64,000 nucleotides of DNA from Promethearchaeati archaeon SRVP18_Atabeyarchaeia-1 (GTDB lineage: Archaea; Asgardarchaeota; Atabeyarchaeia; Atabeyarchaeales; Atabeyarchaeaceae), in assembly GCA_037308085.1 (NCBI GenBank), contig CP147779.1, positions 1,664,001 to 1,728,000 on the forward strand. Reading direction: 5' to 3'. Shown here piece after piece: positions 32,780 through 37,565 of this stretch. The translations under genes were made by a program, and so were the position numbers. The notes beneath the pieces are model-generated. The model was not told where the DNA came from. It saw only the letters and a program-made list of their open reading frames with translations, and ran no database searches. Position 1 is the stretch's first letter, and every line of letters starts with the position of its first letter.

Positions 32780-33361
32780 ATGCGCACTTTGAAGCTGCAA
32801 TTGAGGCGTGCAGTGTTTCATCCACTGAAATTTCTTAGGTCTCTGGGTCCTTTCGCGCTTGCGCATCATCCTGGTTGCGAGCAATTCGCGAATCACTCCC
32901 TTAGACTTAGGAATCACCGTTTCTGCATTGGATGCTTCATAGGCTACCCTGCGTTCATTGCGTCGATAGTCATTCTCTGGATCTCATCATTCCTTTTTGG
33001 CATAGGCTTTGGCTTCATTGAAGCGATTATTGTTGGAATCGCCTTCGAATCAGCAACAATAATAGTCAAGGCGCTCCATGCCGGGGAATCGGCTCATGCC
33101 AAGATCGCCGTGAAAAGCTCTCAGGGAGTAGGGCTTGGATTCATATTCTATCCCTTCCTCATGTTGCAGGCGCCCATCATCTTCAAGGTGTACATTCTAT
33201 TCATTATATGGTCTGCTTTCAACCTGATCATAGGCGCGGTAAGGCTGTACGAGACTGGGAGGACATGCGAGGCGTGCGAGTACAAGTCGAGGTGGAGTAA
33301 GTGCCCAGGCTTCAGGGAGACTGTGAAAAGACTCCGCAGCTCAGGGTTCATAACCGACTAG
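32780..33361 (+). CDS. Hypothetical membrane protein with His/Cys clusters
   Basis: HHPGC...FCIGC, four TM segments, CEAC...CPG. Confidence 0.7.
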   Translation: MRTLKLQLRRAVFHPLKFLRSLGPFALAHHPGCEQFANHSLRLRNHRFCIGCFIGYPAFIASIVILWISSFLFGIGFGFIEAIIVGIAFESATIIVKALHAGESAHAKIAVKSSQGVGLGFIFYPFLMLQAPIIFKVYILFIIWSAFNLIIGAVRLYETGRTCEACEYKSRWSKCPGFRETVKRLRSSGFITD

Positions 33362-33570
33362 AGCTGGCCCAGAAGTCAGGATCTCAAGATCGCGTTTCCA
33401 GTTATTCAGGACTATCGGGGGTGCCGTTGTGAGTGGTTCCCTTATTCTCCAGTCAGGTTGCTGAAAAATGGTACCCTTAAATACGGGAGAGTACCCTCAA
33501 TAATATGAGGGGGGAGGGGGTTCCCCCTTTAAAAGAGCCACCCGCCCCCATTTTCTATTTTGTGGAGCTC

Positions 33571-34831
33571 CGCTCAGTTAACTCTTCGGGTGATAGTTGG
33601 TGCCGTTAGCTTCTCGGCCGTATGGCGGCTTTATTAGCCGAAGTAGCCCCTTTTTCGGGTATGCAAGCTGTCAAAGCAGTCAAGCAGAGCTACACGCCAC
33701 CAACCGAACTACTCAACCTCCTAGACGAGTTTAGAAGAATGGTGAATGACTGCATACGGATTGGCTTAGCTGAAAATGCCACTTCGATGAAGGCGCTCTC
33801 AAAGAAGGCATACCATGAACTCGCAGGATGCGACGCGCCAACCTACTACCGCCTGACGGCGATCAGCAAAGCCACCGGAATCCTCCGGAACTACAGGCAC
33901 GCGCTGAGAAAACAGCCCAAGGCGAAGAGACCGCACGCGGCTAAGCTCATGCTCACCGACTGCTACGGCTTCAGGATAATCAGCGGCGAGCTCAGACTCC
34001 CCATAAGGGCAAAAGAGTACGTATACATCCCGCTGAACGCCTACACACTGCGGTCCATTGAGGGCTGGACCGTGCGTTCAGTCTGCCTGACCACCTCCGC
34101 CGTATCCCTGACTTTCTCCAGGGAGGTTGATCAGGTTGAGCCTGCGGGGCTAATCGGGATAGACCGCAACCTCGACAACGTAACCATTGCGTCCTCAGAT
34201 GGAGATGCGAAGAGGTATGACCTCTCGAGGGTAACTGAGATCAAGGAGAACTGCAGGCAGGCTAAGCGGGGCTTCAAGCGGAACGATTGCCGCGTCAGGG
34301 GGCAGCTCTACTCCAAGTATGGGCGAATCCAGAGGAGCAAGGTAAATTGGGTACTGCACAACGCTTCTGCTGATATAGTGAAGCGGGCGAAGGAGAAGCG
34401 GTTCGGCATAGTCATGGAGGACATTAGGGGCATCCGAAAACTCTACAGGAGGGGAAACTGGCAGGGCAGGGACTACAGAGCAAGGATGAACGGCTGGAGC
34501 TACGCCGAGCTGCAACGGCAAATAGAGTATAAGGCACGCTGGGAAGGTATCCCAGTGTTTTATGTTAACCCATCCAAGACTTCCTCACTCTGCGCGACAT
34601 GTGGTTCACCAATAACCGAATGCGCGGGGAGGAAGGTCTACTGTCCAAGATGCTGCAGCAGGCTCGTGGACAGGGATGAGAACGCGGCTTTGAACATCGT
34701 CGGCGCAGGGCTGCGGTTCGGCCTGAAGGGAGTGGCAGGTGAAGCGGTGAAGGGGAACCCTGAACGCGGAAAGGTAATCCCCGGAGCAGATGCCACCCAG
34801 CTAACTCATCACCCGAAGAGTTAACAGAACC
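33571..34831 (+). mobile_element. 1,261-bp tnpB-carrying non-autonomous element with 24-bp terminal inverted repeats and 8-bp flanking direct repeat
   Basis: Left end CGCTCAGTTAACTCTTCGGGTGAT (33571-33594) vs reverse complement of right end GGTTCTGTTAACTCTTCGGGTGAT (34808-34831), 21/24 identical. TGGAGCTC at 33563-33570 and 34832-34839 abuts both ends. Confidence 0.85.
33661..34824 (+). CDS. tnpB: RNA-guided endonuclease TnpB (IS605 OrfB/Cas12f-like)
   Basis: RuvC-I GIDRN, RuvC-II VMEDI, QIEYKA, zinc finger CATC...CPRC, RuvC-III DRDENAALNI; likely start ATG 33661. Confidence 0.93.
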   Translation: MQAVKAVKQSYTPPTELLNLLDEFRRMVNDCIRIGLAENATSMKALSKKAYHELAGCDAPTYYRLTAISKATGILRNYRHALRKQPKAKRPHAAKLMLTDCYGFRIISGELRLPIRAKEYVYIPLNAYTLRSIEGWTVRSVCLTTSAVSLTFSREVDQVEPAGLIGIDRNLDNVTIASSDGDAKRYDLSRVTEIKENCRQAKRGFKRNDCRVRGQLYSKYGRIQRSKVNWVLHNASADIVKRAKEKRFGIVMEDIRGIRKLYRRGNWQGRDYRARMNGWSYAELQRQIEYKARWEGIPVFYVNPSKTSSLCATCGSPITECAGRKVYCPRCCSRLVDRDENAALNIVGAGLRFGLKGVAGEAVKGNPERGKVIPGADATQLTHHPKS

Positions 34832-34963
34832 TGGAGCTCTCTTTCTGGTGCAACCGCTGTTTTGCTGCGGTCGGTATTCTGGCAAGAGAAGAGAGCGCGG
34901 TATCATTATTCAGCTCATCTGATTTTGGTGGGAGCCCTAATCTGCCAGCTTTTGGGAGGATCA

Positions 34964-35197
34964 TCAACGTCGGCTGTAGCTTGTGGCTAATGTAACGAAA
35001 ACCAGCATTAGGGAGGCTATGGCGAGCACTGCCAGTCCCGAGACCCCGACCTGCAGTGCGAAGAGCGTCACAAACATCAAAGCTCCGAGAGATCCGAGCA
35101 GGGTAACTAGGGTCACCGCTACTAGCCTTCTCATATACTGTCTTATCGCCAGCCTGTAGTTGTATGATACGTTCGCGTCAGCCAAGTTTAGCGCCAC
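34964..35197 (-). CDS. Small membrane protein (2 TM)
   Basis: 77-aa hydrophobic ORF, GTG start preceded by GAGGT, divergent from the helicase. Confidence 0.55.
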   Translation of the reverse strand: MALNLADANVSYNYRLAIRQYMRRLVAVTLVTLLGSLGALMFVTLFALQVGVSGLAVLAIASLMLVFVTLATSYSRR

Positions 35198-35300
35198 AAC
35201 CTCAAATCACTCAAGAAGAACTCGCCAAACTATTTATCGCAATCTGATAATTGTAGATTGAATCAAGAGGAAATCCAAAGAATAACGCAGTGGATTCCGG

Positions 35301-37565
35301 ATGTCAACAAAAAAGCCAAGGACTTTTGCAGGAATCATTGGTCAACTCAAGAAGTCGCGTGCCCGCGACGTTGTCAATGTCTACGTCGAGAAAGAACAGC
35401 TGCCCTCGTATGGATGTTCGGTCGGAGCCCTCGGGCTCTCCGAGTCCGTGATTGGCGCCTTAGAGCGGAGTGGGGTTTCGCGGTTCTTTGCCTTCCAAGA
35501 GAAAGCAATAGGGAGGATCAGGCAAGGCGACAACGTCCTTGTAGTCGCTGGAACCAGTATGGGAAAGACCGAGAGCTACCTCACGCCCGCCCTTGAATAT
35601 GCCACAAGGAATCTCTCAAGATGCATAGCCCTCATAATTTACCCGACCAAGGCACTGGCAGCCGATCAGGCTGAGAGGATATCCAAGTTGACCCAAGTCA
35701 TCTTCGGGGTTTCCTTCGCCAAGTATGATGGAGACACAACTGAGAGTGAACGGAGAAGGATAATGGCTAATCCCCCATCCATACTGATATCTAACCCTGA
35801 TATGCTTCACTTCCACCTACAAGACCCGTGGCTTCAGGAACTCCTCTCGTACCTCAAGTACGTTATCGTAGATGAAGTTCACAATTACTCAGGCGTATTC
35901 GGCAGCCACGTTCACCACATAATCCAGAGGCTGAAAAGGTTCGTGAGAGAGGATTGCCAGTTTGTAGCTTCCTCGGCAACCATCGGAAACCCAAAAGAAT
36001 TCGCCGAACTACTTTTCGCAGAGGAGTTTTCCCTAGTGACGTCGGATAAGGACTGGAGGGGGAAGCGCTCACATGTCATGATTGCTCCCCTACGCAGCAA
36101 ATACACGGAGGCAGTATACCTCGCTGAAATGCTTGTCCAAAGCGGACTCAAGACTATTATTTTCGCTGACAGCCACTTGAGCTCCGAACTCGTGAAGAGC
36201 ATCGCCGATGAGAGAAATCTGAACATGGGAATCCACCGGTCAGGTCTACTCAAAGAGCACCGGAGATCAGTCGAAAGCGCATTCAAGGAAGGTCAAATCA
36301 AGACGGTAGTAGCGACTCCTACACTTGAGCAAGGAATAGACATCGGCGATCTTGACGCTGTAGTACTGATAAAGATCCCACCGACTTTTAGCCGATACAT
36401 CCAAAAGGTTGGGCGCGCCGGAAGGAAGGGCAGGGAGTCAGGAGTATTCCTAGTAATCGGTGACGACCCAATCTCCAACTACTATGCTACCCACCCTGAC
36501 GAGTTCTATCATTCTACGCCAGAGCCAGCATACATCGACCCAGAGAACCCCGAAGTCCTGAAAAGGCAGATCGTGAGCATGGCGTATGACCAGCCCCTAG
36601 CAGACCGGGAAATAGATGAGATTGCCGAGAAGATCAAATCGGTCGGCACAGTAGTTGCCGGCCTACTGGAGGAAGGCTACCTACAGAGAATGAAAAACAT
36701 ACTAACACCTACGAGAAAAGGAGTGGCGCTTCACCAGTCTACGAAACTGAGGGGAACAGGAGAAGCCACAAGAATCTACACAATGGACAACAAATACATC
36801 GGTGACCGCTCTTTGCCAATGGCCGCCAGGGAGCTACACCCAGAGGCAATCTATCTGCATGGAGGAACCCAATACAGAGTCATGAGCTTTGAAGGTCGCA
36901 GAGCAATAGTGGACAGGATGCCATTCAGGAGCAGACAATTCACAGTAGCGCGCTACTATTCAGACATCAAGGAATATGAGACGAAGATGGAAAGGAGAGC
37001 CTTCAACGTACAGATAGAATATGGCGCCGGGACGATCTCGCACGTAGTAGACGGCTACTATGAGAAAGATAGACTGACAGAGAAAACCCTCGCCGAAAAC
37101 AATCTAGAAGAACCAATCATTTACGATTTCCCAACCAAGATCATCAACTTCAAATTGCCTCTCAAAATTACTTGGTCTCCCGAACAGAAGGGAAGCGCAT
37201 CACATGCTGCAGAACACATTCTGATATCTGCCGCTGTAACGTTGACAGGCGCGGACCAGGCCGAGATGGGTGGAATATCATACCCCGACGGCTCAATCGC
37301 AATCTACGACGGCGCATACGGAGGCTCAGGCTTAACTCGTCTCCTGTTTGATCGAATGGAAAGAGCGTTTGAAAGAGGAGCTGAAATGCTCGCGACATGC
37401 AAATGTGGACGGGAAGACGGGTGCCCCAAGTGCACATACTCCCCCTACTGTGGCAACAACAATAAGCATCTCTCGAAGAATGGCGCATTGACAGCTCTGA
37501 GAAAAGTACTGGGAGGCAAAGGAACGGAAGTGGAGAAAAAACCAACTGGAAAGTCAATAGTATAA
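35301..37565 (+). CDS. SF2 DEAD/DEAH helicase with DUF1998 (Hrq1/YprA/SftH family)
   Basis: GTSMGKT, YPTKAL, DEVH, SATIGNP, GIDIG, GRAGR; C-terminal C.C..GCPKC. Confidence 0.93.
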   Translation: MSTKKPRTFAGIIGQLKKSRARDVVNVYVEKEQLPSYGCSVGALGLSESVIGALERSGVSRFFAFQEKAIGRIRQGDNVLVVAGTSMGKTESYLTPALEYATRNLSRCIALIIYPTKALAADQAERISKLTQVIFGVSFAKYDGDTTESERRRIMANPPSILISNPDMLHFHLQDPWLQELLSYLKYVIVDEVHNYSGVFGSHVHHIIQRLKRFVREDCQFVASSATIGNPKEFAELLFAEEFSLVTSDKDWRGKRSHVMIAPLRSKYTEAVYLAEMLVQSGLKTIIFADSHLSSELVKSIADERNLNMGIHRSGLLKEHRRSVESAFKEGQIKTVVATPTLEQGIDIGDLDAVVLIKIPPTFSRYIQKVGRAGRKGRESGVFLVIGDDPISNYYATHPDEFYHSTPEPAYIDPENPEVLKRQIVSMAYDQPLADREIDEIAEKIKSVGTVVAGLLEEGYLQRMKNILTPTRKGVALHQSTKLRGTGEATRIYTMDNKYIGDRSLPMAARELHPEAIYLHGGTQYRVMSFEGRRAIVDRMPFRSRQFTVARYYSDIKEYETKMERRAFNVQIEYGAGTISHVVDGYYEKDRLTEKTLAENNLEEPIIYDFPTKIINFKLPLKITWSPEQKGSASHAAEHILISAAVTLTGADQAEMGGISYPDGSIAIYDGAYGGSGLTRLLFDRMERAFERGAEMLATCKCGREDGCPKCTYSPYCGNNNKHLSKNGALTALRKVLGGKGTEVEKKPTGKSIV

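What the first reader, a model, noticed from the sequence alone, without database searches (positions are those of the whole stretch)
33553..34855. The target duplication would form the guide seed: predicted TTTG TAM and empty-site targeting
Removing the element rebuilds ...CTATTTTG|TGGAGCTCTCTTTCTGGTGC. In known TnpB systems the guide is the flank just 3' of the right end, here TGGAGCTCTCTTTCTGG. It matches the empty site fully, next to a T-rich TTTG that resembles Cas12f-type TTTR motifs. At the occupied left junction only the 8-nt duplication matches, right after TTTG. Inference: the empty allele is cut (retention or homing in a possibly multi-copy chromosome), while the occupied locus is at most bound without cleavage, about 90 bp upstream of the tnpB start. 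That could give RNA-guided autorepression.
Basis: inference. Interest (0 to 1): 0.75.

Follow-up and report, generated by a model that had tools for sequence, protein, structure and literature searches.

The report
TnpB guide seeded by IS6-type duplication
An RNA-guided nuclease gene (tnpB) of an Asgard archaeon rides in a small transposon with IS6-type ends and an 8-base target duplication. A TTG motif sits just before that duplication in nearly every related copy, so the duplication most likely forms the start of the guide that targets the uninterrupted site.

Summary
A 1261-bp element (33571-34831) is flanked by TGGAGCTC on both sides, with TTTG just upstream.

The element is not IS200/IS605-type. 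It has IS6-family inverted ends (GGTTCTGTTAAC) and an 8-bp duplication. The same ends flank IS6 (DDE_Tnp_IS240) transposase elements in this genome, so it is probably moved in trans.

The last ~130-145 nt form a covarying RNA scaffold that ends at the right tip. About 257-bp miniature copies without tnpB keep this scaffold.

The three bases before the left duplication are TTG in 14 of 16 family-A insertions. These come from three Atabeyarchaeia-group Asgard genomes and metagenome contigs; a more distant 58%-identical Bathyarchaeia copy also has TTTG. A second tnpB family with the same ends has TTA in 7 of 11. IS6 elements without tnpB show only a weaker, two-sided TTN bias (TTG on 6 of 34 sides).

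The motif therefore behaves as a family-specific TAM, with the duplication as guide positions 1-8. The TAM is HTTG rather than TTTG.

Cleavage of empty alleles is inferred: I found no empty site and no RNA data. The autorepression idea is not supported, because the partial site lies ~60 nt upstream of the TATA box.

Earlier scan notes had flagged IS6-like tnpB ends.

The parts
33559..33562 (+). Predicted TAM (TTTG here; the family consensus is HTTG with core TTG at 33560-33562). It lies directly 5' of the left duplication.
   Evidence: TTG is at this position in 14 of 16 family-A insertions, against 1.9% genome background and 6 of 34 sides of IS6 elements without tnpB.
33563..33570 (+). Left copy of the 8-bp target-site duplication (TGGAGCTC). 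It gives a TAM-adjacent 8-nt partial match to the predicted guide.
33571..33594 (+). Left terminal inverted repeat, 21 of 24 identical to the reverse complement of the right end. Its tip is degenerate (CGCTCAG instead of GGTTCTG).
33630..33637 (+). TATA-like box (TTTATTAG), conserved in all four genomic copies, about 28 nt before the conserved ATG. It is the probable tnpB promoter with a leaderless mRNA.
   Evidence: Sequence. The promoter role is inferred from archaeal promoter geometry and was not tested.
33661..34824 (+). tnpB, 387 aa from the conserved Met. The longest ORF starts at 33622 and gives 400 aa. The RuvC residues D181, E266 and D352 (400-aa numbering) and the CxxC Zn ribbon are intact. 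The stop codon lies inside the right TIR.
   Evidence: Pfam Cas12f1-like_TNB, 4e-18; invariant residues; matches to solved TnpB and Cas12f chains; dN/dS 0.13-0.29.
34685..34831 (+). omegaRNA-like scaffold. The conserved core runs from about 34703 and ends at the right tip. It overlaps the tnpB 3' end and is retained in tnpB-less MITEs.
   Evidence: 29 pairs, 97% paired against 25-45% in slid controls, and 14 pairs with compensatory changes. One search is the model hit.
34808..34831 (+). Right terminal inverted repeat. Its reverse complement begins GGTTCTGTTAAC, the IS6-family tip. Part of it forms the 3' arm of the last scaffold hairpin.
   Evidence: The IS6 terminal-repeat features are from PMC7986276.
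34832..34839 (+). Right copy of the 8-bp duplication, predicted to be guide positions 1-8.
   Evidence: The guide role is inferred.
34832..34851 (+). Predicted guide, about 16-20 nt (TGGAGCTCTCTTTCTG...). At this junction it is preceded by ACC from the TIR, not by a TAM.
   Evidence: The guide length was not measured.

Best explanation
This is an OMEGA (TnpB plus omegaRNA) module carried by a non-autonomous IS6-type transposon.

Shown: the element has IS6-family inverted ends and an 8-bp target duplication. IS6 DDE transposases with the same ends are encoded elsewhere in the genome.

Inferred: that transposase moves the element in trans. The omegaRNA scaffold is the last ~130-145 nt and ends at the right tip. 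Its guide is read from the flank, so guide positions 1-8 are the right copy of the duplication.

The empty allele reads HTTG + duplication + downstream flank, which is TAM plus a full match, and is the cleavage target. The occupied locus is protected in two ways. At the right junction the target is preceded by ACC, not a TAM. At the left junction only 8 nt match.

IS6 elements are thought to move replicatively, so the nuclease would not repair an excised donor. Instead it would convert or eliminate empty alleles, on sister chromosome copies or after DNA exchange.

The near-universal TAM next to the duplication would then arise in two steps. The transposase has a modest TTN target bias. Insertions that landed in register with a TAM are then preferentially retained or spread.
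For: 1. Ends and duplication. There is an 8/8 duplication and a 21/24 TIR with the GGTTCTGTT tip. An 8-bp duplication and a GG tip plus cTGTt motif define IS6 (PMC7986276).
2. Transposase in trans. The same ends and 8-bp duplications flank elements that encode DDE_Tnp_IS240 transposases in this genome. Homologous transposases are present in both related genomes that carry these tnpB elements.
3. The nuclease looks functional. The catalytic residues are intact and dN/dS is 0.13-0.29.
4. RNA scaffold. It shows strong covariation, ends at the tip, and is kept in tnpB-less ~257-bp MITEs that carry their own TATA box.
5. Motif in family A. TTG abuts the left duplication in 14 of 16 insertions (binomial P about 1e-22 against genome background). 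A further 58%-identical Bathyarchaeia copy outside the tally also has TTTG.
6. Motif tracks the tnpB clade. A 35-40%-identical tnpB family with the same ends in the same genome has TTA in 7 of 11. On a TnpB tree the motif is clade-coherent.
7. One-sidedness. The right side of family-A elements has TTG in 1 of 12. IS6 elements without tnpB have TTG on 6 of 34 sides, with no side preference (Fisher P 4e-6 and 5e-5).
8. The duplication itself is unconserved, so the motif cannot lie inside it.
Against: - No RNA data, so the transcript's 3' end and the guide length are unknown.
- No empty allele was found, so the pre-insertion sequence is reconstructed rather than observed.
- IS6 elements without tnpB also show enrichment of TT at -3/-2 (14 of 34 sides) and of TTG (6 of 34). 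Part of the motif is therefore a transposase or target bias.
- Family B is looser than family A (7 of 11). One MITE has TTA and two family-A copies have ATG.
- The left tip is degenerate (CG...CTCAG), so this copy may no longer transpose.
- The copies differ by about 15-20%, which points to little recent activity.
- The ploidy of this organism is unknown.
- The control IS6 elements are mostly from Bathyarchaeia, with transposases 55-67% identical to this genome's.
Confidence: 0.7

Rival explanations
1. The TTG is only the target-site preference of the IS6 transposase, or of the AT-rich DNA it favours. It has nothing to do with TnpB recognition.
For: IS6 transposase elements without tnpB or omegaRNA have TT at -3/-2 on 14 of 34 sides and TTG on 6 of 34. 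Both are well above background. The right side of tnpB elements shows a similar ~40% TT.
Against: In tnpB elements the motif is one-sided: 14 of 16 on the left against 1 of 12 on the right. It is far more frequent than in the controls. Its last base differs between two tnpB families (TTG vs TTA) that share the same ends in the same genome, which has only one intact IS6 transposase.
Confidence: 0.12
2. TnpB helps choose the insertion site. TAM-bound TnpB, with or without RNA, recruits or orients the IS6 transpososome, so that insertion occurs 8 bp downstream of a TAM.
For: The register is exact and nearly universal, and the motif tracks the tnpB clade. A purely post-insertion filter needs strong selection to reach about 90%.
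Against: There is no evidence of contact between TnpB and the transposase. The guide changes at every site, so RNA guidance cannot pick new sites. MITEs and tnpB copies follow the same rule although tnpB acts in trans. No such mechanism is known for TnpB outside engineered or Cas12k systems.
Confidence: 0.1
3. The main role of the TAM plus 8-nt match at the left junction is RNA-guided autorepression of tnpB by binding without cleavage.
For: Every copy necessarily carries TAM plus 8 matched nt upstream of tnpB. Short guides can bind without cutting: a 10-nt guide for TnpB (PMC13507860) and 9-11 nt for TldR.
Against: The site lies about 60 nt upstream of the conserved TATA-like box and about 100 nt from the start codon, so it does not overlap the promoter. 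Eight nucleotides is below the reported functional lengths. The arrangement is an unavoidable by-product of a duplication-making transposon. The nuclease is intact and under purifying selection.
Confidence: 0.05
4. This is an ordinary IS200/IS605 (IS1341-type) element moved by a Y1 transposase, and the flanking repeat is a coincidence.
For: The genome encodes three Y1 transposases. The ends contain hairpin-forming sequence.
Against: An 8-bp duplication recurs in more than 30 independent insertions, always with IS6-type inverted ends. Eight variable nucleotides separate the conserved motif from the left end. The Y1 mechanism leaves no such gap.
Confidence: 0.01

Closest known systems
IS200/IS605-family TnpB-omegaRNA (ISDra2, IS608/GstIS605; IS1341-type solo tnpB)
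   Same: A compact TnpB with a RuvC triad and Zn ribbon. The omegaRNA scaffold overlaps the tnpB 3' end and right end. The guide is taken from the right flank. The TAM equals the motif on the left flank, so the empty site is the target.
   Different: This element has inverted terminal repeats and an 8-bp duplication and has no linked Y1 transposase. The TAM is separated from the left end by the duplication, which becomes guide positions 1-8. The occupied left junction therefore keeps an 8-nt seed match. Probably no scarless excision product exists to be re-cut.
DDE-transposase-associated TnpB branches (Altae-Tran et al. 2023, PMC10691335; IS630, ISL2 and IS1031 named in PMC13565253)
   Same: TnpB inside transposons with symmetrical ends that are moved by DDE transposases.
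   Different: IS6 is not named in the texts I could read. Here the transposase is not in the element but elsewhere in the genome. Neither text describes a relation between TAM, duplication and guide.
Fanzor (eukaryotic TnpB) in DDE transposons
   Same: An RNA-guided nuclease in elements that have inverted repeats and target duplications.
   Different: In Fanzor the 5' duplication is read as part of the TAM and the 3' duplication lies in the scaffold (PMC13565253). Here the duplication has variable sequence, the TAM lies outside it, and the duplication must be part of the guide.
IS6 family (IS26, IS257) and its MITEs
   Same: An 8-bp duplication, short inverted repeats with a GG tip and cTGTt motif, and a DDE_Tnp_IS240 transposase with an N-terminal zinc finger in the partner elements.
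   Different: The cargo is tnpB plus omegaRNA instead of a transposase. The 2021 review lists a single IS6 member with a passenger gene and two MITEs, none with tnpB.
TldR RNA-guided repressors
   Same: A short TAM-adjacent match could give binding without cleavage.
   Different: The nuclease here is intact. The partial site is outside the promoter, and the match is only 8 nt.

Membership tests
IS6 family (as a non-autonomous derivative) | 8-bp direct target repeats | tested here: met
   8/8 in the window. Repeats of 6-8 of 8 matches in all other family-A and family-B copies.
IS6 family (as a non-autonomous derivative) | Short terminal inverted repeats with a GG tip and cTGTt motif | tested here: met
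   The reverse complement of the right end is GGTTCTGTTAAC. The left end matches 21 of 24 but its tip is degenerate. The defining features are from PMC7986276.
IS6 family (as a non-autonomous derivative) | DDE_Tnp_IS240 transposase encoded within the element | tested here: not met
   tnpB is the only gene in the element. Transposases with the same ends lie at C1:549899-551047 (intact) and 615506-616258 (truncated).
IS6 family (as a non-autonomous derivative) | Replicative cointegrate transposition | not testable with these tools
   Known for IS26-type elements (PMC7986276). Nothing here shows the pathway in archaea.
OMEGA TnpB-omegaRNA system | TnpB fold with an intact RuvC D-E-D triad and Zn ribbon | tested here: met
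   Pfam PF07282 at 4e-18. D181, E266, D352 and the cysteines are invariant. Matches to solved TnpB and Cas12f chains.
OMEGA TnpB-omegaRNA system | Structured RNA scaffold over the tnpB 3' end and right end | tested here: met
   29 pairs, 97% paired, 14 with compensatory changes; slid controls give 0-5. No Rfam family matches.
OMEGA TnpB-omegaRNA system | Guide transcribed from the flank 3' of the right end | not testable with these tools
   No RNA-holding run was listed.
OMEGA TnpB-omegaRNA system | Conserved TAM 5' of the target in the empty site | tested here: met
   HTTG in 14 of 16 family-A insertions, TTA in 7 of 11 family-B insertions, one-sided and clade-coherent. This is comparative evidence only.
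OMEGA TnpB-omegaRNA system | RNA-guided, TAM-dependent DNA cleavage | not testable with these tools
   Needs biochemistry.
IS200/IS605 family (IS1341 group) | No terminal inverted repeats and no target duplication | tested here: not met
   Both are present.
IS200/IS605 family (IS1341 group) | Insertion directly 3' of a conserved tetra- or pentanucleotide that abuts the left end | tested here: not met
   Eight variable nucleotides lie between TTG and the left end.
Fanzor-type arrangement | 5' duplication read as part of the TAM, 3' duplication in the scaffold | tested here: not met
   The duplication sequences are unrelated between copies. The conserved motif lies outside them.
TldR-type RNA-guided repressor | Nuclease-dead protein with a target overlapping a promoter | tested here: not met
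   The catalytic residues are intact. The partial site lies about 60 nt upstream of the TATA-like box.

The most novel reading that the evidence does not exclude
The TAM that abuts the duplication may be a genomic footprint of TnpB-driven homing acting as a filter on DDE-transposon insertions in Asgard archaea and Bathyarchaeia. The IS6 transposase would insert with only a loose TTN bias. Mainly those insertions whose left duplication happens to follow the family's TAM would then persist or spread, because only these let the nuclease cut empty alleles. The TAMs (TTG, TTA) would have adapted to the transposase's TTN bias. The tnpB-less MITEs would exploit the same drive with their own guide RNA.
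Probability: 0.45. Interest if true: 0.8.

Novelty: new variant of a known kind. Interest (0 to 1): 0.62.

Why it matters
TnpB is understood mainly through IS605 and IS607 elements. There the transposase itself inserts next to the TAM and excises scarlessly, so the nuclease's job is to re-cut the emptied donor.

Here the carrier makes random 8-bp duplications and probably does not excise. Even so, the TAM sits in exact register in about 90% of copies.

This gives three things that can be tested. The first is a predicted TAM (HTTG, and TTA for the sister family) for compact archaeal nucleases. The second is a case where a target duplication is part of the guide, unlike Fanzor. The third is a natural data set for asking whether RNA-guided homing, rather than transposase specificity, decides which insertions survive.

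It also documents an OMEGA/IS6 partnership in relatives of the eukaryotic ancestor. I did not find that partnership described in the searched literature.

Tried and rejected
- Rfam scan of 33000-35500: no family matched.
- Empty site in the two related genomes: the flanks are only 66-80% alike in short coding stretches, and the intergenic site cannot be aligned.
- Paralogous empty sites in the own genome: none for 19 elements.
- Public runs: Logan contigs of four metagenome runs bridge both junctions. No contig skips the element. Contigs cannot show rare alleles.
- No RNA holder was listed, so expression and RNA ends could not be examined.
- The Atabeyarchaeia mobile-element paper and its preprint do not mention TnpB or IS6, and its supplementary tables are not held.
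- Literature searches for TnpB with IS6 found nothing relevant.
- A covariance model of the scaffold found no omegaRNA in IS6 transposase elements, only end-level matches.
- tblastn found no tnpB inside those elements, so they served as controls.
- The IS605-type reading was considered and rejected.
- A 14-nt match to the predicted guide at C1:567209 has no TAM and was taken as chance.

Full report
**Observation.** The window holds a 1261-bp element (33571-34831). Its only gene is tnpB: the longest ORF is 33622-34824, and the conserved start is at 33661. TGGAGCTC abuts both ends (33563-33570 and 34832-34839), and TTTG precedes the left copy. Pfam places the protein in Cas12f1-like_TNB. It matches solved TnpB and Cas12f chains, and D181, E266, D352 and the zinc-ribbon cysteines are invariant among relatives.

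**What the element is.** The window lies in a 2.81-Mb single-contig genome, and a whole-genome search found three more copies at about 85% identity. Their flanks showed the same layout of TTG, an 8-nt repeat, the element, and the 8-nt repeat again.

The right terminus (...GTTAACAGAACC) recurs, inverted, at both ends of several kinds of element in this genome:
- the four family-A copies;
- about ten copies of a second tnpB family, 35-40% identical;
- miniature elements of about 257 bp;
- two larger elements that encode DDE_Tnp_IS240 (IS6-family) transposases. One is intact, 383 aa, with a SWIM zinc finger.

All of these have 8-bp duplications. A GG tip with a cTGTt motif and 8-bp repeats are the family marks of IS6 (PMC7986276). 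The element is therefore a non-autonomous IS6-type transposon carrying tnpB, not an IS200/IS605 element. The genome does also hold three Y1 transposases and classical IS605-type tnpB genes.

A relative's record title identifies the lineage as Asgard, Candidatus Atabeyarchaeum. The published mobile-element survey of these genomes does not mention TnpB or IS6.

**RNA.** The last ~130-145 nt are conserved even in the tnpB-less miniature elements. A 20-sequence alignment gives 29 base pairs with 97% of cells paired, against 25-45% when the partners are slid. Fourteen pairs carry compensatory changes, against 0-5 in the slid controls and none of 500 shuffles reaching the observed values. The last hairpin uses bases of the right inverted repeat, and the scaffold ends 6 nt later at the tip. 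This is the anatomy of an omegaRNA whose guide would be the flank. No Rfam family matches and no RNA data were available.

**The motif.** I oriented every insertion by tnpB or by the scaffold.
- *Family A.* The three bases before the left duplication are TTG in 14 of 16 family-A insertions with a recognisable duplication. These come from this genome, two related genomes and metagenome contigs. The other two have ATG. A further 58%-identical Bathyarchaeia copy, outside this tally, also has TTTG before an 8/8 duplication.
- *Position -4.* It is T, C or A, never G, so the motif is HTTG.
- *Background.* TTG makes up 1.9% of trinucleotides.
- *Family B.* It has the same ends in the same genome and shows TTA in 7 of 11 insertions.
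- *Phylogeny.* On a maximum-likelihood TnpB tree the motif is clade-coherent. Core family A has 9 TTG and 2 ATG. Family B has 5 TTA plus TCA and TAC. A third clade has ATG, GTG and ATG.
- *The duplications.* They share no sequence, so the motif is not inside them.
- *The other side.* The side beyond the right duplication has TTG in only 1 of 12 cases.

**Control for the main rival.** I collected 17 IS6 transposase elements without tnpB and without a scaffold hit. Two are from this genome and 15 from Bathyarchaeia. Across 34 usable sides, TT occupies -3/-2 on 14, TTG occurs on 6 and TTA on 2, with no preference for either side.

So the transposase, or the DNA it favours, has a loose, symmetric TTN bias. 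The tnpB elements add a one-sided, family-specific enrichment on top of it. Family-A left side against the controls gives Fisher P = 4e-6. Family-A left against right gives 5e-5. Family-B TTA against the controls gives 2e-4.

I read this as a TAM matched to the transposase's bias, plus a further filter linked to TnpB.

**Mechanism, and what is inferred.**
- *Shown:* the ends, the duplication, the transposase partners, the intact nuclease under purifying selection (dN/dS 0.13-0.29), the structured RNA, and the motif statistics.
- *Inferred:* the RNA continues into the flank, the duplication is guide positions 1-8, the empty allele (HTTG plus full match) is cut, and the occupied locus is spared.

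The occupied locus would be spared because the right junction has ACC instead of a TAM and the left junction matches only 8 nt. IS6 elements are described as replicative (PMC7986276). The benefit would therefore be conversion or elimination of empty alleles rather than repair of an excised donor. I could not observe an empty allele, and ploidy is unknown.

**Autorepression.** A TAM plus 8-nt match is an unavoidable by-product of the duplication. It lies about 60 nt upstream of the conserved TATA-like box (33630-33637), which precedes the conserved ATG (33661) by about 28 nt. Reported binding-only guide lengths are 10 nt for TnpB (PMC13507860) and 9-11 nt for TldR. Binding is conceivable, but promoter occlusion is not indicated. 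I rate this low.

**Comparison with the literature.** DDE-associated TnpB branches are described in PMC10691335, where IS630 is named. A 2026 review names ISL2, IS630 and IS1031. In Fanzor the 5' duplication is part of the TAM and the 3' duplication sits in the scaffold. Here the duplication is variable and must be guide. I found no paper that links TnpB with IS6. Earlier notes of this scan had already flagged IS6-like ends around tnpB in this and other genomes. One of those notes led me to the DDE-branch paper.

**Verdict.** The autorepression extension is not supported.

Noticed in passing
L018:477-7030 (G000:C1:549276-555829): A 6.5-kb element with IS6-type ends and an 8/8 duplication (TGGAGAAC). 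It carries the genome's only intact IS6 transposase (383 aa, SWIM zinc finger) together with a 995-aa Eco57I/MmeI-like methyltransferase fusion. This is a transposon-borne restriction-modification-like gene.
   Followed up: partly
G000:C1:868840-869096, 537695-537950, 1260433-~1260690, ~2205595-2205851: Elements of about 257 bp made of the left inverted repeat, a TTTATAT box, the omegaRNA scaffold and the right inverted repeat, with no tnpB. Most have TTG before an 8-bp duplication; one has TTA. They look like guide-RNA-only hitchhikers. Their ends resemble those of a metagenomic tnpB element (L065).
   Followed up: partly
L141-L192 (Bathyarchaeia genomes): IS6 transposases with the N-terminal zinc finger are common in Bathyarchaeia (33 of 301 genomes searched) and rare in Asgard (5 of 301). 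Their elements are 2.2-5.3 kb with unidentified cargo. They show a symmetric TT bias at -3/-2 next to the duplication.
   Followed up: partly
G000:C1:1573364-1574975 and 1955413-1956884: Classical IS605-type pairs (a Y1 transposase next to a distant tnpB) coexist with the IS6-ended tnpB families in the same genome.
   Followed up: no
G000:C1:567209-567222: A 14-nt match to the predicted guide of the window copy, preceded by GAA rather than a TAM. About 0.02 such matches are expected by chance.
   Followed up: partly
G000 family-A copies (window 33571-34831; C1:899438-900693; 1808115-1809377): The copies differ at dS 0.34-0.48, yet their duplications are 8/8, 8/8 and 7/8. The copies therefore diverged before they inserted at their present sites.
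   Followed up: no
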